Made by a program: the position numbers and the translations under genes
Shown: one piece after another, positions 30-46,200 of the stretch
Position numbering within the stretch: position 1 is the first letter of the stretch
Layout: each line of letters begins with the position of its first letter
NCBI GenBank assembly: GCA_964016885.1
Contig: OZ024741.1
Location: forward strand, 87,296,001-87,360,000
Origin: Eledone cirrhosa
Taxonomy: Eukaryota
Reading direction: 5' to 3'
Length of the DNA stretch: 64,000 bases
Notes under the pieces: model-generated
What the model was told of the DNA's origin: nothing
What the model saw: only the letters and a program-made list of their open reading frames with translations
Database searches by the model: none

Positions 30-118
30 GTCAGGACCCCGATGGCTGAGCTTCGGTCGTTTCGGCAGCTAGATCTGATTGTCGAAAACAGCCGAAGCTC
101 AGCCGTCGGGCTTCTGAC
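30..118 (+). other. 89-nt GC-rich hairpin (near-perfect inverted repeat)
   Basis: 30-68 pairs with 79-118 (core CCCGATGGCTGAGCTTCGG / CCGAAGCTCAGCCGTCGGG), with 5 G.U pairs, 2 mismatches and 1 bulge on the + strand. It is followed by CTCTTTTCC and a (TA)n tract. Confidence 0.8.

Positions 119-127: not shown

Positions 128-206
<79 letters not shown>
128..206. repeat. (TA)n microsatellite
   Basis: Pure TA run. Similar runs lie at 411-460, 3870-3941, 5203-5246, 8848-8888, 15852-15901, 20911-21000, 21388-21433 and 37697-37752. Confidence 0.98.
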
Positions 207-1558: not shown

Positions 1559-2759
1559 TTATAATTTATATATAGTTCTAAACGTTGAATTCGGGCGATG
1601 TCTACAAGAATTAAATAAATTCGTTCTTAGATTAATAGAGTTCTTACATTTAAGTATGAAAAAAATTTCCTCAACACACAATTTGCAGAATCTAGAGAAA
1701 GCTGTGTTTTGGTACGCGGGTGCTTTTGAAATTATTTCCCAAGTTAATGAATAGTCAATATTCTTGCATTTTAAGTTCCATATCAAGTTTGAAAGAGAAT
1801 TTGAAGATTTTTTTATCAATTCTTTTGAAAGAGCATTTGTGATTAATCCAGCGACTTTTAAATTCTGTAGAAGTTGCATCTACATAGTTAAATATATTAT
1901 CACTGGTTTTGACTGTATATTTATAGACCACATCCTTATCTAAACATTTATTTTGTAAAGGACAGTTTAATTTAATTCTACAGTTACATTTTGCGGAGTT
2001 GTTGTTATTCAGAACGGTACTATTATGTTGGATATTGCTAGAGATATTACTGCTATTTTGGTTATTTTGGTTAGGGTTTAAATTTCTATTATTGATTCTA
2101 TTTATATTTTGTGCTATGTTCATAGTAGTAGAGTAGGATAGTTTTATAGTATGTCTGTTAAAGATTGAGTGGTATCTGTGGGCTTTAGGAAAACATTTAT
2201 CTAGAGCTTTAAAGAATAGCTTTGCTAAAGGTGTTTTAACGCTTAATGAGAATGGGGGTGAGTACCAAATAATATTTCTAGTTCTAGTTTTTTTGTTTGG
2301 TTTAGTGTTTAAGTTAAATTGTTTATTATTATTATAATTAATTCTAGGATGATTTGTCATGTTATTGTTATCTATGTATTTAATTTTATTCGAGTATCTA
2401 TGTAAAGCTTCATTGTAATATACTGCCTTATCGTCAAAAATGTTTTTATTAGCGGAGATGCGTGAAATACGTTGTTGGATAGAGTTGACAATAGTGTTCT
2501 TGATAGATCTAGGATGATTAGAGTTAAAACTTACATAGTTTAGATTCTCATTAATTTTATGGAATGGATAGTAGAGCCCTGTGTTTAGGTTTAATTTTAC
2601 GTCTAAAAAGTTAACAATTTTATAGTTATTCTCAATTTCTAACTTAAGGTTGTAGCTATTGAAGAATTGTATTATGGATTTTCTTTTTCTATTAATTTCA
2701 CAATCACTATGATTTTCAATTAAAAGCAGCATATCATCACGATATAAACCACCGGTCAT
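1559..2759 (-). pseudogene. PLE ORF remnant: C-terminal RT plus GIY-YIG endonuclease, one frameshift near 1810
   Basis: Motifs GGLYRDD, VNFLDVKLNL, SNHP, IIWYSPPFS, KCNCR..CPLQNKCL, VVYKYTV..YVDAT..FKSRWINH, then in the other frame LSNLIWNLK..CKLC..SCRH. Confidence 0.9.
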
Positions 2760-2769
2760 CTCTGGTATT

Positions 2770-3265
2770 TTTCATAAAATATATACATATATAATTCTAA
2801 ATTTTTTTAAAATTTTAATTATAATTTTAATCTTAATAATTTTTAATTCTTTATTTTTTATTTCTTTAATTTTTTATCTCTTTTAAAAATTACTTATCTC
2901 TTATAAATTATATAATTTTTTTTAATTCTCTCACATTTTTTATATTTTTTCAATATTTTTTATTAGATTTATAACCACTAACTGATTCTGGTTAAATATA
3001 TTTTTCAATATTTATACTTATTTCGACTAGATAGTCTCATACTAACGAATAAATAAACTAAACTGGAATTTTCCGTATCTTCCCATTTTAAAATATATAA
3101 ATATAAATATTCTTATTAACTCAGTTAATTTAATTTAATTTAACTTAATACTTATTTACATTAAATACATAACCAATATCCCCCATAACTCATTAAAACA
3201 ATTATCTATAACATGATATACCCATCTATTCATTTATTTATTTATCTATTTATTTATTTATATAT

Positions 3266-5199: not shown

Positions 5200-5248
<49 letters not shown>

Positions 5249-5683
5249 TATATATGAATAGGTAAATATTTAGGTATATATAGGTATATATGAATAGGTA
5301 AATATTTAAATTATATTTTTTAATTTATTTTAAAAAATTGGTTGAATTTTGCTTGTTCTGCTTATATTAATATTATAGTTCTGGTATGTCAAATTGATAC
5401 CATAGAACAACCTTAAATCATAGACAACCTATGTATTTCCAGGGGTACCTAGTACCCACGGGCTTACTAACTTCTTCTATCACCCTCCATTTGTTGAGAA
5501 CAATCACGTTGATTCTATTTAGCTGCTATTTTTAGTAACGAGATAGACAACACGTCTATGTTTTTCCCGCTTTAACCTCGGGTAGTTCACGTACAGGTCA
5601 TTTTTCGGCCTTTTGGATCTGTGCTAGCTGGCAGATAACAATATATTTTATCGTTCCTGGGTCTTTAGCCCTAGGAAAGGAAA

Positions 5684-5770
5684 ATGCTTCTCTGATGAGC
5701 CTTGATTTTCCATTAGAAATCCATTGGGTCTCTGGTGTTTTACAAGGCGAAACCGATCGGTAAGAGCCAT
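5684..5770 (+). ncRNA. Type I hammerhead ribozyme, array copy 1
   Basis: Stem I ATGcTTCT/AGAGcCAT; core CTGATGA 5692-5698; stem II GCCTTG/CAAGGC enclosing 38 nt; GAAA 5749-5752; palindromic stem III ACCGATCGGT; GUA triplet with cut after A5762. Confidence 0.9.
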
Positions 5771-6164
5771 ATGAATAGGTAAATATTTAAATTATATTTT
5801 TTAATTTATTTTAAAAAATTGGTTGAATTTTGCTTGTTCTGCTTATATTAATATTATAGTTCTGGTATGTCAAATTGATACCATAGAACAACCTTAAATC
5901 ATAGACAACCTATGTATTTCCAGGGGTACCTAGTACCCACGGGCTTACTAACTTCTTCTATCACCCTCCATTTGTTGAGAACAATCACGTTGATTCTATT
6001 TAGCTGCTATTTTTAGTAACGAGATAGACAACACGTCTATGTTTTTCCCGCTTTAACCTCGGGTAGTTCACGTACAGGTCATTTTTCGGCCTTTTGGATC
6101 TGTGCTAGCTGGCAGATAACAATATATTTTATCGTTCCTGGGTCTTTAGCCCTAGGAAAGGAAA

Positions 6165-6251
6165 ATGCTTCTCTGATGAGCCTTGATTTTCCATTAGAAA
6201 TCCATTGGGTCTCTGGTGTTTTACAAGGCGAAACCGATCGGTAAGAGCCAT
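6165..6251 (+). ncRNA. Type I hammerhead ribozyme, array copy 2
   Basis: Same sequence as copy 1, offset 481. Confidence 0.9.
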
Positions 6252-6645
6252 ATGAATAGGTAAATATTTAAATTATATTTTTTAATTTATTTTAAAAAAT
6301 TGGTTGAATTTTGCTTGTTCTGCTTATATTAATATTATAGTTCTGGTATGTCAAATTGATACCATAGAACAACCTTAAATCATAGACAACCTATGTATTT
6401 CCAGGGGTACCTAGTACCCACGGGCTTACTAACTTCTTCTATCACCCTCCATTTGTTGAGAACAATCACGTTGATTCTATTTAGCTGCTATTTTTAGTAA
6501 CGAGATAGACAACACGTCTATGTTTTTCCTGCTTTAACCTCGGGTAGTTCACGTACAGGTCATTTTTCGGCCTTTTGGATCTGTGCTAGCTGGCAGATAA
6601 CAATATATTTTATCGTTCCTGGGTCTTTAGCCCTAGGAAAGGAAA

Positions 6646-6732
6646 ATGCTTCTCTGATGAGCCTTGATTTTCCATTAGAAATCCATTGGGTCTCTGGTGT
6701 TTTACAAGGCGAAACCGATCGGTAAGAGCCAT
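6646..6732 (+). ncRNA. Type I hammerhead ribozyme, array copy 3
   Basis: Same sequence as copy 1. Confidence 0.9.
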
Positions 6733-7126
6733 ATGAATAGGTAAATATTTAAATTATATTTTTTAATTTATTTTAAAAAATTGGTTGAATTTTGCTTGTT
6801 CTGCTTATATTAATATTATAGTTCTGGTATGTCAAATTGATACCATAGAACAACCTTAAATCATAGACAACCTATGTATTTCCAGGGGTACCTAGTACCC
6901 ACGGGCTTACTAACTTCTTCTATCACCCTCCATTTGTTGAGAACAATCACGTTGATTCTATTTAGCTGCTATTTTTAGTAACGAGATAGACAACACGTCT
7001 ATGTTTTTCCCGCTTTAACCTCGGGTAGTTCACGTACAGGTCATTTTTCGGCCTTTTGGATCTGTGCTAGCTGGCAGATAACAATATATTTTATCGTTCC
7101 TGGGTCTTTAGCCCTAGGAAAGGAAA

Positions 7127-7213
7127 ATGCTTCTCTGATGAGCCTTGATTTTCCATTAGAAATCCATTGGGTCTCTGGTGTTTTACAAGGCGAAACCGAT
7201 CGGTAAGAGCCAT
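7127..7213 (+). ncRNA. Type I hammerhead ribozyme, array copy 4
   Basis: Same sequence as copy 1. Confidence 0.9.
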
Positions 7214-7607
7214 ATGAATAGGTAAATATTTAAATTATATTTTTTAATTTATTTTAAAAAATTGGTTGAATTTTGCTTGTTCTGCTTATATTAATATTAT
7301 AGTTCTGGTATGTCAAATTGATACCATAGAACAACCTTAAATCATAGACAACCTATGTATTTCCAGGGGTACCTAGTACCCACGGGCTTACTAACTTCTT
7401 CTATCACCCTCCATTTGTTGAGAACAATCACGTTGATTCTATTTAGCTGCTATTTTTAGTAACGAGATAGACAACACGTCTATGTTTTTCCCGCTTTAAC
7501 CTCGGGTAGTTCACGTACAGGTCATTTTTCGGCCTTTTGGATCTGTGCTAGCTGGCAGATAACAATATATTTTATCGTTCCTGGGTCTTTAGCCCTAGGA
7601 AAGGAAA

Positions 7608-7694
7608 ATGCTTCTCTGATGAGCCTTGATTTTCCATTAGAAATCCATTGGGTCTCTGGTGTTTTACAAGGCGAAACCGATCGGTAAGAGCCAT
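7608..7694 (+). ncRNA. Type I hammerhead ribozyme, array copy 5
   Basis: Same sequence as copy 1. Confidence 0.9.
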
Positions 7695-8088
7695 ATGAAT
7701 AGGTAAATATTTAAATTATATTTTTTAATTTATTTTAAAAAATTGGTTGAATTTTGCTTGTTCTGCTTATATTAATATTATAGTTCTGGTATGTCAAATT
7801 GATACCATAGAACAACCTTAAATCATAGACAACCTATGTATTTCCAGGGGTACCTAGTACCCACGGGCTTACTAACTTCTTCTATCACCCTCCATTTGTT
7901 GAGAACAATCACGTTGATTCTATTTAGCTGCTATTTTTAGTAACGAGATAGACAACACGTCTATGTTTTTCCTGCTTTAACCTCGGGTAGTTCACGTACA
8001 GGTCATTTTTCGGCCTTTTGGATCTGTGCTAGCTGGCAGATAACAATATATTTTATCGTTCCTGGGTCTTTAGCCCTAGGAAAGGAAA

Positions 8089-8175
8089 ATGCTTCTCTGA
8101 TGAGCCTTGATTTTCCATTAGAAATCCATTGGGTCTCTGGTGTTTTACAAGGCGAAACCGATCGGTAAGAGCCAT
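8089..8175 (+). ncRNA. Type I hammerhead ribozyme, array copy 6
   Basis: Same sequence as copy 1; CTGATGA at 8097. Confidence 0.9.
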
Positions 8176-8572
8176 ATGAATAGGTAAATATTTAAATTAT
8201 ATTTTTTAATTTATTTTAAAAAATTGGTTGAATTTTGCTTGTTCTGCTTATATTAATATTATAGTTCTGGTATGTCAAATTGATACCATAGAACAACCTT
8301 AAATCATAGACAACCTATGTATTTCCAGGGGTACCTAGTACCCACGGGCTTACTAACTTCTTCTATCACCCTCCATTTGTTGAGAACAATCACGTTGTTG
8401 ATTCTATTTAGCTGCTATTTTTAGTAACGAGATAGACAACACGTCTATGTTTTTCCCGCTTTAACCTCGGGTAGTTCACGTACAGGTCATTTTTCGGCCT
8501 TTTGGATCTGTGCTAGCTGGCAGATAACAATATATTTTATCGTTCCTGGGTCTTTAGCCCTAGGAAAGGAAA

Positions 8573-8659
8573 ATGCTTCTCTGATGAGCCTTGATTTTCC
8601 ATTAGAAATCCATTGGGTCTCTGGTGTTTTACAAGGCGAAACCGATCGGTAAGAGCCAT
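8573..8659 (+). ncRNA. Type I hammerhead ribozyme, array copy 7
   Basis: Same sequence as copy 1; CTGATGA at 8581. Unit 7 is 484 bp because of a GTT duplication near 8398. Confidence 0.9.
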
Positions 8660-8844
8660 ATGAATAGGTAAATATTTAAATTATATTTTTTAATTTATTT
8701 TAAAAAATTGGTTGAATTTTGCTTGTTCTGCTTATATTAATATTATAGTTCTGGTATGTCAAATTGATACCATAGAACAACCTTAAATCATAGACAACCT
8801 ATGTATTTCCAGGGGTACCTAGTACCCACGGGCTTACTAACTTC

Positions 8845-8893
<49 letters not shown>

Positions 8894-10140: not shown

Positions 10141-11870
10141 TCATAAATTAAAAATACTTCTGAAAGTGGAATTTTGGCGATGACTGCAAGTAGAAAATAA
10201 TTCTGTTTTAAGATTAATAGAGTTTTGACAGTTAATTTTATAACAAATTTCCTCGATACACAAGTTACATAATCTTGAGAAAGCCATATTTCGGTATGCA
10301 GGTGCTTTCGAAATAGTTACCCAAGATATTGAATAGTCTATATTATTGTCTTTTAAGTTCCAAATTAAATGTGAAAGTGAAGTGGAAGATTTTTTATCGG
10401 ATCTATTAAATGTGTGTTTATGGTTATTCCAGCGTTCTTTAAACTTTATAGAAGTGGCATCAATATAGTTAACAACTTTGTCTCTAGTTTTAACTGTGCA
10501 TTTATAAATTACGTTTTTGTCTAAGCAATTATTTTGTAAAGGGCAGTTTGATTTAATTCTACAGTTACATTTTCTGGAGTTGTTGTTCGGGACGGTACTA
10601 TTATTCTGAATATTGCTGTTAGAAATATTATTATTGCTATCTTGGTTAGTTTGGTTAGGGTTTACATTTAAGTTTCTATTATTAATTCTATTTATATTTT
10701 GTGCTATGTTCATAGTAGTAGGGTAGGATAGTTTTATAGTGTGTCTGTTAAAAATAGAGTGGTATCTGTGGGCTTTTGGAAAACATTTATCTAGTGCTTT
10801 AACAAACAGCTTTGCTAAAGGTATTTTAACGCTTAATGAGAATGGGGTGAGTACCAAATAATATTTCTAGTTCTAGTTTTTTTGTTTGGTTTAGTGTTTA
10901 AGTTAAATTGTTTATTATTATTATAATTAATTCTAGGATGATTTGTCATGTTATTGTTATCTATGTATTTAATTTTATTCGAGTATCCTGCTCTATGTAA
11001 AGCTTCATTGTAATATACTGCCTTATCATCAATAATATTTTTATTAGCAGAGATGCGTGAAATCCGTTGTTGGACGCTATTGACAATAGTGTTTTTAATA
11101 TTTCTAGGATGATTAGAATTGAAACTTACGTAATTTATATTTTCGTTAATTTTATGAAATGGATAGTAAAGACCTGTGTCAAGGTTTAAGGTTACATCTA
11201 AGAAGTTAACGATTTCGTAATTATTCTCGATTTCTAAATTAACGTAGTTGTTGAAAAATTGTATTATGGATTTCCTTTTCCTATTAATTTCACTATTGCT
11301 ATGTTTTTCAATTAAAAGTAACATATCGTCGCGATATAAACCCCCGGTCATCTCTGGCATTTTCCTATGCAGTACATTATTAATAAATAATCCAACGAGG
11401 TCCGTTGCTTGCGCCGAGTCAGATGATCCCATAGTGATATCAAAATTGTTTTTTCTGTCGGCTCTTGTCCAGAGATGATTATTAAATTATATTAGGGTTT
11501 TACGTGCTGTTAGAATTATATTCATTTCTTCACTAGATAGGTCTGTATGTTTAGACGCGTAGATAAGTGCCTTATTAAGTAAGCTAGGGGTAATAGAGGA
11601 GTAGTAATTTGCAATATCCATTTGAATGAATTTTTTGTTATGTTTTAATTTTATGTTATTTAACCAATTTATAACTTCATAGTTTAAGGTGTGATTTTTC
11701 TTTAACTAATATATGCTTGCTAATTATGCCTAAGTTCGATTTAGATGGTGCGATGAGTTTGACTGGAAGTTCAATTTCAAAATTTCTTTTGTGGTCCTTC
11801 AGGTTAATCTTCGGTTTTCTAGGTATAAAGGGTTCGGTCCTATTTTGGATGCCTAATGTATAAATAATTT
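10141..11870 (-). pseudogene. PLE RT + GIY-YIG ORF remnant with frameshifts
   Basis: Motifs FIQMDIANYYSSI, FDITMGSSDSAQATDLVG, GGLYRDD, FLDVTLNL, KCNCR..CPL..C, VIYKCTV..YIDAT..FKERWNNH, CNLC..CSH. Confidence 0.9.
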
Positions 11871-33484: not shown

Positions 33485-35945
33485 GTGGTGGTGGGGAACG
33501 ACGCTTCGGGCATAAGCCCTTCTTCAGGCGAAAAGTGTGTGGGAAGAGAGTTCCAAGGGTGTGTAGGGGAGTGGGGGAGAGACATTTAGAAAAATGGGGG
33601 TGAGAGGAAACGGTACAAATGAAAATAAATATAGAAGCATAATAAAAATGAAAATAAATATGGAAGCATAATAAAAATAAAAATAAACATGAAGTAAAAC
33701 AAGTGGTGTGGGGCGTGTAGGGGTGGTGGCGGGTGGAGTGGGGAGAGGGCGGCGGGGTATCCGAGCGGGGAGGGCTGAAGGTGGGGTGTGTGTGTAGGTG
33801 TATGTGTGTGTATGTGAATGTGAGAGTTGGGGGAAGAACGGGGTTGCATGTTCAGGAAAAGGTGTGTGTGGGGTGGGGTGTAGGTCGGTGTGTGTGTGCG
33901 TGTGTGGATGGGGAGGGGTCAGAGGGGTGGGGGAGGGGAGGAGAGGATTCCGGAGGCTGAGTGTGTAAATATGTGGTGGTACGCACGTGTGTCTGGTGTT
34001 TATACGTATTGTGGATGTAGGTGGCGTGTGGGAAAAAAATGTGTTTAGTGTATGTCCGTGGGTAAGTTCCTAAGGTAATTCCGTAGAGGATGTGGTGGGA
34101 TGCTGGGTAATTTCCTTGTGATGTAATTGATTCTTGGGAGCGATGTCCAATGTGTGTAATTCGTTGTTGGGTTGGTCGGAAGAGGGGAGATGTGGGGTGC
34201 GCGCGCAACAGGAAGTGGTCAGAGGGGCAAGGCAGGAGGAGGGTTGTGTGTCTGTGTGTGCCGAGAGGTGGTCAGAGATTCAGGGCATAGCAGCAGTCGG
34301 GGAGAATGGCAGGTGGAGAAAGTCGGTGTGTCAGTGTGTGCGGAGGTGCAGTGGACAGGGGAGAGGATGGGTAGGTGTGAAAGGTGGTGGGGGGGGGGTT
34401 GTATTAGTAGAGGTGTTAGTGGGATGTGTGTGTGTGAGAAGGGGTGTGGGTGGAGCGGGGAGGGGGAGGGGGAGAGAAAGGTGTGGGGGCCGGTGGAGGG
34501 AGTGTAGTGTACTGGTGTGTGTGTGCGTGTTTGGATGAGTGTGTGTGTGGTGAAGGGGGTGTTAGTGGGTGGTGTAAGTGGGTGTGTGTGTTCGTGTGCG
34601 TGGAGTCGGGGGGTGTTAGTGGTATTAGTTGTGGGGTGGTGGGAGTGGATGTGTGGGTGTGACGGTTAGTGGTGGTAGTAGGGTGTGTGGTTAGTGTGAG
34701 TGCGTGTATATATGTACCGGTGGGTGTGTGCGTGATAAGGGGAGAGGGGGAGAAGAAAGGAGGGATGTTAGTATTGTTAGTTGGGGAAGGGTGGTCGGGT
34801 GTGGGGGTGTTAGTATTGTTAGTTGTGGGGTGGGCGGTGAAAAGGAGGGGTGTGTTAGTGGTGTTAGTGGGGGATATGTGTGGGGGGAGGGGGAGTAAAC
34901 AGGGCGGTCGAAGGCTAAAGGAATAGGGGTGGGGAGTTCAGGCCGGGGGAGTGTGGGTCTGTAGGGTGAAGATGGTGCGTTGTTCGACCCTGAGGAGGGT
35001 GGCAGGTGTTGCGAGGCATTGGAGTAGGCCACAGACTGTGAGGTGGTGCGCGGAATGTCCGAGGGGGCCAAAGTGGCGGTCGATGGGGGAACTACCGCCG
35101 AGACGAATATCCCGGAGGTGTTCGGTAAACCTGTCCGCCAGGCGACGTCCAGTCTGTCCGACGTAGGTCGCGTTGCACTCCGTGCAGCGAAGTCCATAGA
35201 CTAGGTTGGAGGAGGTGCAGCAGAAGGCGTGCCGGACAGAGAGAGAGTGGCCATTGGGACCCTGGAAGGTGGTGGTATTGGTGATGTGGGGACAGGTGTT
35301 GCAACGAGGCCTGGAACAGGGGAGGGAACCGGTGGGGGGGGGAGCTGCGGACGAGGAGGGTGCGGAGATTGCGTGCGCGTTTGAAGGAGGGGAGTGGTGG
35401 GGCTGGGAAGATGTGGGAGGTGGAGGGGTCGGACTGGAGGCGTCGGAAGAGGCGGAGGATGGTGCGGTGGAGGGGTAGGGTGGAGGGGTGGTAGGTGATG
35501 GGAAAGGGGAGACGGTGGGTGGGTGTGCGGTGGCATGGGGTGAGGGTGGTGGAGCGGTGGACAGCACGGGCGCGGGTAAGAAATGGCTGACTAGGGAAAG
35601 GGCCTGGGACTCAAAGTCAGCATCTCGGCTACAGAGGCGGCGGATCCTGAGGAGTTGGGTGTAGAGAATAGAGTGTTTAATGTGTGTAGGTTGGGAAGAG
35701 GTGAAGTCGAGGTAGGAGTGGGAGTCGGTGGGTTTAAAGAAGGCGGATGTGACGAAGGAGTGGTGGGAGGGGTCGAAGGCGACGGAGATGTCTAAGAAGT
35801 GGACGTGGGTGGTGGAGATAGAGGTGGTGAAGTGGAGGGTGCGGTGGAAGGAGCAGAAGAAGGAGAGAAAGGAGTCGAGCTGTTCTCGGGTGTGGGTCGT
35901 GGCTCCGATACAGTCGTCGATGTAACGACCGTACACTTCGGGCGT
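33485..35945 (-). mobile_element. GC-rich Neptune-like Penelope-like retroelement, 5'-truncated
   Basis: ORF 35944->34938 has YGRYIDD, FLDISV, FKPTDSHSYL, PCSRPRCNTCP and NLVYGLRCTECNATYVGQTGRRLADRFTEH. A long C-rich 3' UTR ends in a hammerhead-like motif, and (TA)n lies at the 5' junction. Confidence 0.85.
33495..33532 (-). ncRNA. Minimal hammerhead-like motif at PLE 3' end, probably inactive
   Basis: CTGAAGA-aGGGC ttat GCCC-GAAg-CGTC. GAAA is mutated to GAAG and stem I is poor. Confidence 0.55.
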
Positions 35946-36306
35946 ATATATATATATATATATATAAACTCGTACACCCACACTCTTAAATTATCTGGTG
36001 GTAACTCTCATAGAGAAGAACTAAACAAAACCAGGCAAAGACAAATCTGACAAATAGTATTGAGTCAATATGGAGTCACATAATATCATTATAAATTACA
36101 TATAAAACGATGTATATATCATAATATATATATCATAATATATAGTTGCAAAACGTTCATGTGCGAGTTGGAGTGTAAAAGGACTTCCACGGGCATATAA
36201 GGCATGCACTTACATTGGATGTTTGAGAGCACACACGCTATGTGCAGTGTGCACAGCGTATATTGTATACGAATTTACATAAGAAAGAGCATAATGTGGT
36301 ATAATA

Positions 36307-38011: not shown

Positions 38012-40475
38012 AATTGTTAATTTAACCTCTAAAGAATTAACAACAGACCAAATCAACATACTCTCCAAAGGTCTAAAATTTACACCAACTCCCCAACAAC
38101 CAAACTACCCCGAAATGAAGGAAGATATTGCAGAATTCTGTAGAAAACTAAGACTCAGCGAGCAACTATACGACAAATACAATGAAGATGACTCAATAGC
38201 CAGAAATAGAAGCAATTACACCCCACCAAAAGGCAAGAACAAATTCCTCGATCAATTCTGCGAACACATTACTTATTACCCATACCACCACCTACACAGA
38301 CATAAACAGAAACCAAACCTAAGCAAAAAAGAATGGAATGGTCTTAACAGTCTAAAAAATAACAAAACCCTAACAATCAAAGAGACGGATAAAGGGAGTG
38401 TAGTAGTCCTTATGGAGACAGATTATTACACGACTCTAGTACTCTCAACTCTAGAAAACCAAACATATTATGAAAAGGCCCAACACTACACACAACAGAA
38501 AATAATGAGAAAGCCAAAATCCCTAACAACCCTTTACAAAGAAGGCCTTACAGACAAGGAATACAACTACATCACCAATTTCAAAAGCAGAACCAGCCTC
38601 TTCTATGGTATCCCAAAGACACACAAAATCGAAATAATAGGTAGGGCCTGCAAGCATGCCACAGACGTTTACATCAATATAGCCCCTCCTGGTGACCTTA
38701 AATTAAGACCCATAATAGCAGGCACCACATGTGAAACCCACCGCCTAAGCAACTTCCTAGATATTCTGCTTAAACCTTTCCTAAAACACATAAAAAGCTT
38801 TATAAAGGACGACCTTGACATGCTCAACCACCTCTCAACAACACTCAATAATGAACATACCCTACTAGTAACCTTTGATGTCATCAATTTATATTCCAAT
38901 ATCCCATACAATTCTGGCTTGAAAATTTCCCTAGTGAACTCCCACAGCGCATCCCTAAAGAATTTGTGTTGGAGGGACTCAAATTCATCTTGGAAAACAA
39001 TTTCTTCGAATTCAATGCCAAATACTACAGACAGAAATCTGGAACTGCCATGGGCACGAAAGTAGCCCCCTCATACGCAAACCTTGTCATGGGATATTTG
39101 GAAACCACTCTCTACCGCAAAGTTCTAGACAAATACGGCAACCACTTCTACCAACACATAGAAAAGAACTGGAAGAAATATCTGGACGACTGCTCCGTCC
39201 TCTGGCATGAAAAAAGTATAGATAGACTGTTTGAGTTTAAAACCCTTCTGAATGGACTCAACACAAACTTACAATTCACAATAGATTACAGCCATGAACA
39301 ACTCCCTTTCCTCGACATCCTCATCAAGAAAACAAACAACAAAATAGAAACAGACATATACTACAAACCCACAGACTCCAAAAAATACCTCCCATTCAAC
39401 TCGTGCCACCCTAGACACACCAAAATGGGAATTCCTTATAACCTAGCCAAAAGGATCTGCACAATAGTTTCAGATAAATACACATGCTACACACGACTAG
39501 AAAAATTAAAAAACTCACTTATCAGCAGAAACTACCCACCATCCCTAATCAACAATGGATTCCAACGTGCCCTAAAATCGACATCCAGGAACTCAGACAC
39601 CCCAAACCCAGGAATGAACTGCAACAAAAAACTCTACCATACATCTCCACACACAATCCCCTCAACAATGAGGCATCCGACACCATCCTCCAGAACATTT
39701 CTTTACTAAAAAGAGACCCAAGAATGAACAAAATCCTCCAAACACACAACATCATAAAGAGCAAAAGACAACCTAAATCCATAAAAAACATCCTCACACA
39801 AGCCAAAATCCAACAAACACTCACAATGAACCCTACAATAAGAAAATGCGGAAGGCCCAACTGTAACATATGCATAAATCTAATGGAAGGTTCAACATTC
39901 CATTTTAAACAAGGACAACATTTCACAGTTAAACACAACTTTACATGTGCATCTGAAAACCTAATCTATGTTTTGACCTGCTCAGGTTGTCAAGAGCACT
40001 ACATAGGACAGACAAAAAACAACCTCCGTCAAAGTATGACCGCCATAAATCACAAATTAAAATACAGGAATACAGAAAGATTGCATTTAGTGAACATATC
40101 GATAATTGTGCGCACAACCAACATCCAAACTTTATTATTTTCCCCATTTACAAATTCATAGACAATGCTACTTTCATCCATCGAACCAATAAGGAAACAT
40201 ATTTCATTAACAAATTCCAACCTCTACTTAATGCACAAAACTTCGGACCAAAGTAAAACTGGAACAAACAATCAATCATTTGCAAGAGTTACCGCCCACA
40301 CACCCTACCTAATCCTTTAAAAAGGGAAATCTAAAAAGGGAAATCATATCAAACCCCAGTCCACCATTTGCCTCCATAGTGGAATCATGGATCAACTAAG
40401 CACCCTTGCTATATTAACACATTTTGATCTGCTTAACTTCAAGAACTATGCCTATAAGTAACATTATTTACAGGC
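38012..40475 (+). mobile_element. Neptune-like Penelope-like retroelement, near full-length ORF with frameshifts
   Basis: IVNLTS..LSKGLKFTPTP, TDKGSVVV, RPIIAG, FDVINLYSNIP, GTAMGTKVAPSYANLVMG, YLDD, YYKPTD, KCGRPNCNIC, NLIYVLTCSGCQEHYIGQT. Preceded by (TA)n. Confidence 0.9.
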
Positions 40476-43252: not shown

Positions 43253-46200
43253 GACAGTCTACAACACATACACCACTTGGTACAAAGACTCAGTCTACAA
43301 CACATACCTCACTTGGTACACAGACACAGTCTACAACACATAGATTACTTGGTACACAGACACAGTCTACAACACATACATCACTTGGTACACAGACACA
43401 GTCTACAACATATACACTACTTGGTGCACAGACACAGTCTACAACACATACACCACTTGGTACACAGACACAGTCTACAACACACATAACTCACTTGTTA
43501 AACAGACACAGTCTACAACACATACATCACTTGGTACACAGACACAGCCTACAACACATACACCACTTGGTACACAGACACAGTCTACAACACATACATC
43601 ACTTGGAACACAGACACAGTCTACAACACACATACCTCACCTGGTACACAGACACAGTCTACAACACATACACCACTTGGTACACAGACACAGTCTACAA
43701 CACATACACAGTCTACAACACACATACACCACTTGGTACACAGACACAGTCTACAACACATACATCACTTGGTACACAGACACAGTCTACAACACATACA
43801 TCACTTGGTACACAGACACAGTCTACAACATATACACTACTTGGTGCACAGACACAGTCTACAACACATACACCACTTGGTACACAGACACAGTCTACAA
43901 CACACATAACTCACTTGTTAAACAGACACAGTCTACAACACATACATCACTTGGTACACAGACACAGTCTACAACACATACACCACTTGGTACACAGACA
44001 CACTCTAACACATATACACCATTTGGTACACAGACACAGACTACAACACATACCTCACTTGGTACACAGACACAGTCAACAACCCACATACACCACTTGG
44101 TACACAGACACAGTCTACAGCACATACACCACTTGGTATGGTACACAGACACAGTCTATAACACATACCTCACTTGGTACATAGACACAGTCTACAGCAC
44201 ATACACCACTTGGTACACAGACACAGTCTACAACACATACACCACTTGGTACACAGACACAGTCTACAGCACATACACCACTTGGTACACAGACACAGTC
44301 TACAACACATACACCACTTGGTACACAGACACAGTCTACAACAGATACACCACTTGGTACACAGACACAGTCTACAACACATACACCACTTGGTACACAG
44401 ACACAGTCTACAACACATACACCACTAGGTACACTGACACAGTCTAAAACACATACACCACTTGGTACACAGACAGTCTACAACAGATACACCACTTGGT
44501 ACACAGACACAGTCTAAAACACATACACCACTAGGTACACTGACACAGTCTACAACACACACCACTTGGTACACAGACAGTCTACAACAGATACACCACT
44601 TGGTACACAGACACAGTCTACAACACATACACCACTTGGTACACAGACACAGTCTACAACACACATACCTCACTTGGTACACTGACACAGTCTAAAACAC
44701 ACACACCACTTGGTACACAGACAGTCTACAACAGATACACCACTTGGTACACAGACACAGTCTACAACACATACATCACATGGTACACAGACACAGTCTA
44801 CAACACATACACCACTTGGTACACAGACACAGTCTACAATACATACATCATTTGGTACATAGACTCAGTCTACAACACAGATACAACACTTGGTACACAG
44901 ACACAGTCTACAACACATACATCGCTTGGTACACAGACACAGTCTACAACACATACACCACTTGGTACACAGACACAGTCTACAACACATACATCATTTG
45001 ATACACAGACACAGTCTACAACACATATATCATTGGTACACAGACACAGTCTACAACTCATACACCACTTGGTACACAGACACAGTCTACAACACATACA
45101 CCACTTGGTACACAGACACATTCTACAACACATACATCATTTGGTACACAGACACAGGCTACAACACATATGTCATTGGTACACAGACACAGTCTACAAC
45201 ATATACTTCACTTCGTACACAGACACAGTCTATAACACATACATCACTTGGTACACCGACACAGTCTACAACACATACCTCACTTGGTACACAGACACAG
45301 TCTACAACACATACACCACTTGGTACACAGACACAGTCTACAACACATATACCACTTGGTACACAGACAGAGTCTACCACATATACACCACTTGGTACAC
45401 AGACACAGTCTACAACACATACCTCAATTGGTACACAGACACAGTCTACAACACACATACACCACTTGGTACACAGACACAGTCTACAACACATACCTCA
45501 CTTGGTACACAGACACAGTCTACAACACATACACCACTTGGTACACAGACACATTCTACAACACATACACCACTTGGTACACAGACACAGTCTACAACAT
45601 ATACCTCACTTGGTACACAGACACAGTCTACAACACATACACCACTTGGTACACAGACACAGTCTACAACACATACCTCAATTGGTACACAGACACAGTC
45701 TACAACACACATACCCCATTTGGTACACCGACACAGTCTACAACACATACATCACTTAGTACACAGACACAGTATACAACACATACACCACTTGGTACAC
45801 AGACACAGTCTACAACACATATACCACTTGGTACACAGATACAGTCTACCACACATACACCACTTGGTACACCGACACAGTCTACAACACATACCTCACT
45901 TCGTACACAGACACAGTCTACAACACACATACCCCACTTGGTACACAGACACAGTCTACAACACATACCTCAATTGGTACACAGACAGAGTCTACCACAT
46001 ATACACCACTTGGTACACAGACACAGTCTACAACACATACCTCAATTGGTACACAGACACAGTCTACAACACACATACACCACTTGGTACACAGACAGTC
46101 TACAACACATACCTCACTTGGTACACAGACACAGTCTACAACACACATACCCCACTTGGTACACAGACACAGTCTACAACACATACACCACTTGGTACAC

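What the first reader, a model, noticed from the sequence alone, without database searches (positions are those of the whole stretch)
5245..5310. Array 5' end coincides with the ribozyme cleavage site and shows junction stuttering
Seen: internal units read ..CGGTA^AGAGCC-ATATGAATAGG, and the first unit starts at ATATGAATAGG, only 6 nt downstream of the predicted cut. Just upstream, a 20-bp piece (ATATGAATAGGTAAATATTT, ~5252-5271) is duplicated and interleaved with AGGTATATA. Inference: the cDNA ended at the 5' end of a self-cleaved RNA and the RT jumped templates while joining to the TA target. For a DNA-level duplication, a start this close to the cut would be a coincidence on the order of 1-3%.
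Basis: partly seen in the sequence, partly recalled or inferred. Interest (0 to 1): 0.72.

Follow-up and report, generated by a model that had tools for sequence, protein, structure and literature searches.

The report
Retrozyme end near ribozyme cut
This is one copy of a widespread 481-base non-coding repeat with a predicted self-cutting RNA motif, likely pasted into TA repeats by a Penelope-type jumping-gene enzyme; its copies stop just after the predicted cut about three times more often than chance, but nearly nine passes in ten run through it, and the stutter at this junction is likely a DNA-joining slip.

Summary
Observation confirmed. The 7.4-unit array (5288-8850) starts 6 nt after the predicted hammerhead cut (+7), and the junction is a real stutter: 26-nt piece, 10-nt piece, same 26-nt piece. 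3' ends are fixed at about +92 or +196-199, next to (TA)n; 100 loci carry one of each and none carries two alike, which is a Penelope-type footprint. 5' ends are scattered: 286 of 325 approaches cross the cut. Ends at -4..+15 are 2.7-fold enriched (38 vs 14 expected). The +7..+15 excess recurred in a pre-set held-out set (6 vs 2.0); the exact-cut excess did not. So about 8% of arms stop here for a ribozyme-related reason (cleaved end or stall), and ends within 6 nt of the cut make up 6%, not 1-3%. The stutter repeats a linker that is not in the unit, so it was likely made on DNA; similar stutters occur at +16, +77, +105 and +138. A new member of the known animal retrozymes. The scan found the same two-end layout and the same near-cut question before on other DNA.

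The parts
5203..5246 (.). (TA)n target, left side
5247..5272 (+). Stutter piece X: linker GGTAT plus unit +7..+27
   Evidence: identical to 5283-5308; covered by a read contig
5273..5282 (+). Stutter piece Y: starts like X, ends in TA after 10 nt
5283..5287 (+). Third copy of the non-unit linker GGTAT, joined to unit +7
5288..8850 (+). Single-arm tandem array, 7.4 x 481 bp, from unit +7 to +199; longest complete arm sampled (3560 nt)
5373..5373 (+). Unit +92, the family's short fixed 3' end (internal here, terminal at other loci)
   Evidence: (TA)n loose ends behind 5373 in runs X1-X4
5688..5766 (+). First complete type I hammerhead motif (stem I 5688-5691/5763-5766, core 5692-5698, stem II 5699-5704/5743-5748, short palindromic stem III 5752-5761); predicted cut after 5762; repeated every 481 bp
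8848..8850 (+). Unit +197..+199, the family's long fixed 3' end; these three bases also fit the (TA)n target; inferred start of reverse transcription
8851..8888 (.). (TA)n target, right side

Best explanation
The array is a single-arm insertion of a hammerhead retrozyme in a TA repeat, likely written by a Penelope-type reverse transcriptase that started at a fixed internal site (+199), read through seven ribozyme sites and stopped in a modest hot zone just after the eighth, and its junction stutter was likely made afterwards on DNA. Shown: fixed 3' ends, (TA)n targets, head-to-head pairs with one long and one short end, read-through of most cut sites, about threefold excess of ends at -4..+15, the X-Y-X parse. 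Inferred: the template was a multi-unit or circular RNA in which most ribozyme sites were intact; in a minority of templates (about 8% of arms) the RNA's 5' end was a self-cleaved end, and the cDNA end was trimmed past the GC-rich +1..+6 to the first AT-rich microhomology. The TA-ended target strand then primed three times on the same cDNA end (26 nt, 10 nt, then full extension), as in microhomology-mediated end joining.
For: 3' ends: 186 of 200 segments in 126 loci end at +84..96 or +193..203; 60 of 68 in the 40 loci chosen without regard to ends. 61 of 65 head-to-head loci have one end of each class, 4 have one non-canonical end, none has two alike; over all sets 100 of 210 loci have one of each and none two alike. 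211 of 225 canonical ends abut a TA run. Penelope RT starts at two internal sites on both target strands, which gives the genomic tail (PMC11167929, parts 1-2 of 4 read). 5' ends: 286 of 325 approaches cross; +7..+15 23 vs 6.9, held-out set 2 6 vs 2.0 (P 0.016), +2..+6 2 vs 3.6. L032 is a perfect fold-back centred on +1; L125 has two sub-unit arms ending at +1 and +8. Junctions favour microhomology: 49 of 72 head-to-head joints overlap; single-arm ends share 1.36 nt with (TA)n vs 0.47 null, n=53. The stutter repeats a non-unit linker three times; iterative templated insertions are described for alternative end joining (PMC2895639, passages).
Against: The exact-cut class (-2..+1) is 7 vs 2.1 overall but 1 vs 0.9 in the 123 held-out arms. 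Ends also lie upstream of the cut, where a cleaved end cannot put them: -4..-3 6 vs 1.4, -20..-5 16 vs 10.6, with fold-backs at the stem III palindrome (L162). The first held-out set showed no excess at +1..+15 (2 vs 2.2). +7..+15 was chosen after seeing the discovery data, and one of the 6 held-out hits (L367) rests on a hand edit. In the one Penelope element studied in vitro, cleavage was dispensable and no RNA reads ended at the cut. GGTA occurs in the unit at -4..-1 and +16..+19, so an RT could in principle have made the linker. No partner element was identified, and cleavage was not assayed.
Confidence: 0.45

Rival explanations
1. Same element and enzyme, but the excess near the cut comes from RT stalling at the folded or dimerised ribozyme of an uncut or circular RNA, with joining helped by the stem III palindrome; no cleaved end is involved.
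For: The excess begins at +7, just 3' of stem I, and 4 arms from two subfamilies end exactly at +7. Ends at -4..-3 and in stem III require passing the cut. Minimal type I hammerheads cleave poorly in vitro (PMC4209133, passages).
Against: Stem I is only 4-5 bp. -20..-5 was not enriched in held-out set 2 (2 vs 3.2). A second hairpin hot spot (165-173) also failed to recur (1 vs 2.0). L032 and L125 have ends exactly at +1.
Confidence: 0.25
2. This particular end is ordinary background: a random truncation that settled at +7 because ATAT there matches the (TA)n target.
For: 6.9 of 23 ends at +7..+15 are expected without any ribozyme effect. +7 is one of 11 TATA/ATAT sites in the unit, and single-arm ends favour TA microhomology. 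+1..+7 alone is not enriched (6 vs 5.3).
Against: The AT-rich stretch +21..+40 is enriched only 1.4-fold. Two of the four +7 ends are in a subfamily with AAAAG there and join another arm, not TA.
Confidence: 0.27
3. For the stutter only: the RT ran off near the RNA's 5' end and re-annealed repeatedly to the RNA and the target, writing X-Y-X itself, in a telomerase-like way.
For: All pieces derive from unit +7..+27, GGTA and TA. 2 of 5 stutters lie at +7 and +16. PLE RTs are telomerase-related (PMC8557442 abstract).
Against: The same non-unit linker would have to be rebuilt three times; 3 of 5 stutters lie at +77, +105 and +138.
Confidence: 0.3
4. The array arose by DNA-level tandem duplication of a monomer, with no reverse transcription of multimers.
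For: One CpG variant recurs in two units three apart and in only one other locus, so part of this unusually long array may have expanded after insertion.
Against: Dispersed copies share fixed 3' ends and head-to-head arms that cross the cut.
Confidence: 0.03

Closest known systems
Metazoan non-LTR retrozymes (PMC7229834, passages and Discussion read; bioRxiv 10.64898/2026.07.22.740005, parts 1-3 of 5 read)
   Same: Non-coding tandem units of a few hundred bases, each with a type I hammerhead, dispersed as monomers to multimers; proposed to be moved by Penelope-like elements.
   Different: The parts read do not map insertion ends. Here the two fixed 3' ends, the head-to-head pairing and the distribution of 5' ends around the cut are measured. 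Circular RNA and cleavage are not shown here.
Endonuclease-positive Penelope-like elements (PMC11167929 parts 1-2 of 4; PMC8557442 and PMC3846280 passages)
   Same: Partial tandems, an adjoining inverted 5'-truncated copy, a tail on one end only, (TA)n targets, a hammerhead upstream of the start sites.
   Different: No ORF. The tail is about 105 nt rather than 30-40. PMC11167929 found no RNA reads ending at the cut, whereas genomic ends here are about threefold enriched beside it.
Templated insertions of alternative (polymerase theta-type) end joining (PMC2895639, passages)
   Same: Short pieces of flanking sequence repeated at a junction, with microhomology.
   Different: Here at a retroelement 5' junction; the enzyme is not identified.

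Membership tests
Metazoan non-LTR retrozyme | Tandem repeats with a type I hammerhead motif in each unit | tested here: met
   Seven complete motifs at 481-484 bp spacing; 88.9% of cells paired and 8 of 13 pairs with a change on both sides across 12 sequences (structure drawn by hand on the window's copy); below Rfam gathering
Metazoan non-LTR retrozyme | No protein-coding capacity | tested here: met
   None of the 16 stop-to-stop frames of 150 aa or more in window 1-40400 overlaps the array
Metazoan non-LTR retrozyme | Dispersed genomic copies | tested here: met
   503 matches to the short-end/TA junction motif; 210 loci analysed
Metazoan non-LTR retrozyme | Self-cleavage of the transcript | not testable with these tools
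   Only the indirect excess of ends near the predicted cut
Metazoan non-LTR retrozyme | Unit-length circular RNA in cells | not testable with these tools
   Needs RNA data with read ends
Penelope-type insertion (works like) | Inverted 5'-truncated copy joined head to head | tested here: met
   65 of 126 discovery loci; absent from this window's copy
Penelope-type insertion (works like) | Two fixed 3' ends that define a tail on one side | tested here: met
   +92 and +196-199; 100 loci with one of each, none with two alike; tail longer than the 30-40 bp in print
Penelope-type insertion (works like) | (TA)n target preference | tested here: met
   211 of 225 canonical ends abut a TA run, most of them selected by such a pattern; also seen in the 40 loci selected by whole-unit match
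Penelope-like element (membership) | ORF with RT and GIY-YIG endonuclease | tested here: not met
   No ORF in the array; such ORFs exist elsewhere in the genome
Penelope-like element (membership) | Sequence homology to the terminal repeat of an autonomous element | tested here: inconclusive
   A profile search of 80 RT or GIY-YIG loci hit only a separate retrozyme dimer in L281; 10,596 GIY-YIG candidates exist and 50 loci were examined

The most novel reading that the evidence does not exclude
The 5' junctions of these insertions are a genomic record that a minimal, dimer-type hammerhead cuts in the germ line: about one arm in twelve was copied from an RNA whose 5' end was a self-cleaved end, while most ribozyme sites on the same multi-unit templates stayed intact. 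This would give a per-site in vivo cleavage estimate from DNA alone.
Probability: 0.4. Interest if true: 0.55.

Novelty: new member of a known kind. Interest (0 to 1): 0.3.

Why it matters
The role of hammerheads in Penelope-type elements is open: in vitro they were dispensable, and no RNA ends were found at the cut (PMC11167929). An excess of insertion ends beside the cut would be indirect evidence of cleavage in vivo, and the two fixed start sites tie retrozymes mechanically to Penelope enzymes. Here the effect is modest, its cause is ambiguous, and a single junction carries little weight.

Tried and rejected
Rfam gave no match at gathering score and only E 6.2 for a hammerhead. No RNA holder was listed among 5 runs; this says nothing on expression. 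Exact-cut peak: seen in discovery (478..+1, 10 vs 2.6), 0 vs 0.75 in held-out set 1, and -2..+1 1 vs 0.6 in set 2; not accepted as established. Hairpin hot spot at 165-173: 16 vs 3.7 in discovery, 3 vs 2.6 in held-out arms; probably inflated by short arms selected with the long-end motif. Symmetric enrichment on both sides of the cut weakened in set 2. Assembly artefact for the stutter is unlikely. Partner search: RVT_1 search and GIY-YIG search, then a profile search of 80 loci and 30 loci of diverged sister families with 1.5-kb flanks: no partner found. Whether both arms of a locus come from one RNA: own-arm difference 0.020 vs best other locus 0.016 and median other 0.057 in 32 loci; uninformative. 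Literature: 'retrozyme' with 'head-to-head' gave 0 papers; one search listed 5 papers, and no title or abstract start among them points to a map of genomic 5' ends against the cut. Only the library of open papers was searched; supplements of the bioRxiv preprint are closed and were not seen, and no other supplements were opened.

Full report
1. Observation. The array runs from 5288 to 8850 (7.4 x 481 bp) between two (TA)n runs. Predicted cuts follow 5762, 6243, 6724, 7205, 7686, 8167 and 8651. Numbering the first base after the cut as +1, the array starts at +7 and ends at +199. The units are identical except for one C>T in two units and a 3-nt insertion in one. The left junction is (TA)n, X (5247-5272), Y (5273-5282), X (5283-5308). 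X is GGTAT plus unit +7..+27; Y begins like X and ends in TA after 10 nt. A read-derived contig covers 5239-5304 without difference (possibly the source sample).

2. Ribozyme. Rfam does not call it. The core, a long stem II and a short palindromic stem III are read from the sequence; the type I layout and numbering are recalled and agree with passages of PMC4209133. On 12 related sequences from this genome, 88.9% of cells pair, 8 of 13 pairs change on both sides, and slid controls pair at 31-42%. The structure was drawn on the window's copy and the sequences are related, so this supports the fold and the cut position but does not show activity.

3. Family census. The window lies in a 3.0-Gb genome. 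Loci came from a whole-unit search (40 loci) and from motif searches, most of which select on a 3' end and so bias 3' counts but not 5' positions. In 126 discovery loci, 186 of 200 segments end at +84..96 (mostly +92) or +193..203 (mostly +196-199); in the 40 unselected loci, 60 of 68 do. 65 loci are head-to-head; 61 have one end of each class, 4 have one non-canonical end, none has two alike. Read contigs show (TA)n loose ends behind the same two positions. This matches the Penelope pattern of inverted truncated copies with a one-sided tail (PMC8557442 and PMC3846280, passages) and the two internal start sites found in vitro (PMC11167929, parts 1-2 of 4). The window's copy has only the long-end arm.

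4. For each arm I counted passes and stops at each unit position, with expected stops taken from arms of similar length outside the zones tested. Discovery (187 arms): +-20 of the cut 37 vs 16.5; 478..+1 10 vs 2.6. Held-out set 1 (32 loci, 39 arms; windows set in note): 478..+1 0 vs 0.75; +1..+15 2 vs 2.2; +-20 6 vs 3.0. After this I saw a sub-peak at +7..+15, fixed the windows again and fetched held-out set 2 (86 arms, 54 loci): +7..+15 6 vs 2.0 (P 0.016); -2..+1 1 vs 0.6; -20..-5 2 vs 3.2; +-20 14 vs 8.3 (P 0.044); 165-173 1 vs 2.0. All 310 arms in 210 loci: -20..-5 16 vs 10.6; -4..-3 6 vs 1.4; -2..+1 7 vs 2.1; +2..+6 2 vs 3.6; +7..+15 23 vs 6.9; -4..+15 38 vs 14.1. 39 of 325 approaches stop in -4..+15 and 286 cross; 2 arms begin exactly at +1 and 4 at +7. 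P values are Poisson, uncorrected for the number of windows, and treat the two arms of a locus as independent.

5. Rows edited or dropped. Duplicated loci were counted once (L076, L176, L177, L359, repeats inside L043 and L142; L330-L332 had been seen before). Segments of sister families in L032, L083, L096, L114 and L138 were left out, as were segments with non-canonical 3' ends and two truncated arms (L337, first segment of L386). Outermost 5' ends were set by hand for L031, L035, L045, L114, L145, L162, L367 and L338. Without the L367 edit the held-out +7..+15 count is 5.

6. Reading of the 5' end. The excess in -4..+15 is about 24 of 310 arms (8%). For an end at +7..+15, about 7 in 10 are excess. 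A cleaved RNA end trimmed to the first AT-rich microhomology explains the low count at GC-rich +2..+6, the fold-back centred on +1 in L032 and L125's two short arms ending at +1 and +8. A stall at the folded ribozyme explains ends upstream of the cut and fold-backs in stem III. I put about 0.45 on a cleaved end, 0.25 on a stall and 0.27 on background for this copy. In any version the RT crossed seven sites first, so the template was multimeric or circular, or part of the array expanded later (one CpG variant recurs three units apart).

7. Reading of the stutter. The three pieces share their start, and each aborted piece ends in TA. The shared start includes GGTAT, which does not precede +7 in the unit. 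The simplest template is therefore a DNA junction that already carried the linker, on which a TA-ended target strand primed three times. Junctions of this family favour microhomology (49 of 72 head-to-head joints overlap, 8 are blunt, 15 have inserts; single-arm ends 1.36 vs 0.47 nt). Direct re-copies of 10 nt or more were found beside 9 of 223 arms; 4 are artefacts of the stem III palindrome, and 5 are stutters at +7, +16, +77, +105 and +138. Iterative templated insertions are described for alternative end joining (PMC2895639, passages). The RT-jump version is not excluded, because GGTA occurs at -4..-1 and +16..+19.

8. Partner. The genome holds many RT-GIY-YIG elements (150 scored of 10,596 candidates; L281 encodes 748 aa with RVT_1 and GIY-YIG, and sits in (TA)n). 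None of the 80 loci searched carried a terminal repeat homologous to this family; the only hit was a separate retrozyme dimer in L281.

9. Comparison and novelty. It meets the sequence features of metazoan non-LTR retrozymes (PMC7229834, passages and Discussion; bioRxiv 10.64898/2026.07.22.740005, parts 1-3 of 5) and works like a Penelope insertion without being an autonomous member. My searches found no paper on head-to-head retrozyme ends and no listing that points to a map of genomic ends against the cut. Earlier notes of this scan (unchecked AI notes on other families) report the same two-end layout several times, and disagree on whether ends gather at the cut. My reading of the layout predates those look-ups; note e1-10329974 prompted the finer split of the zone around the cut.

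10. Verdict. Observation confirmed; interpretation partly supported; new member of a known kind; interest 0.3.

Noticed in passing
window 40493-62908: A 22-kb satellite of 36-bp units in two oppositely oriented blocks that meet abruptly at 43253/43254.
   Followed up: no
window 1755-2771, 10141-11486, 34938-35990, 38013-40161: Broken reading frames that look like Penelope-type RT and GIY-YIG fragments (judged by eye from recalled motifs, not scanned).
   Followed up: no
window 5297-5378 (unit +16..+97): An AT-rich stretch bounded by GT and AG, like a small intron; the flanking GT/AG also appear in sister families (L096, L114). The short fixed end (+92) lies just inside it. No copy lacking it was noticed.
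   Followed up: partly
L281 2776-6275: A 5'-truncated RT-GIY-YIG element in (TA)n. Sequences like its 3' end abut retrozyme copies in L020 (ending near 6210) and in L048 and L110 (ending near 6275), which suggests two fixed ends about 65 nt apart and nested use of the same TA runs.
   Followed up: partly
L145, L308: Copies that lack the bases just after the cut through a slip between the two GGTA motifs, which removes one strand of stem I.
   Followed up: no
L300-L329: Several diverged sister families share the hairpin at +97..+127 and the two-end layout; 1,176 matches to the hairpin motif.
   Followed up: partly
G000:C1:382892539-382901775: An array of the older subfamily spanning at least 9 kb, far longer than other copies; not fetched.
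   Followed up: no
L154 5562-6072: A different hammerhead-bearing element in inverted arrangement about 4 kb from a retrozyme copy.
   Followed up: no
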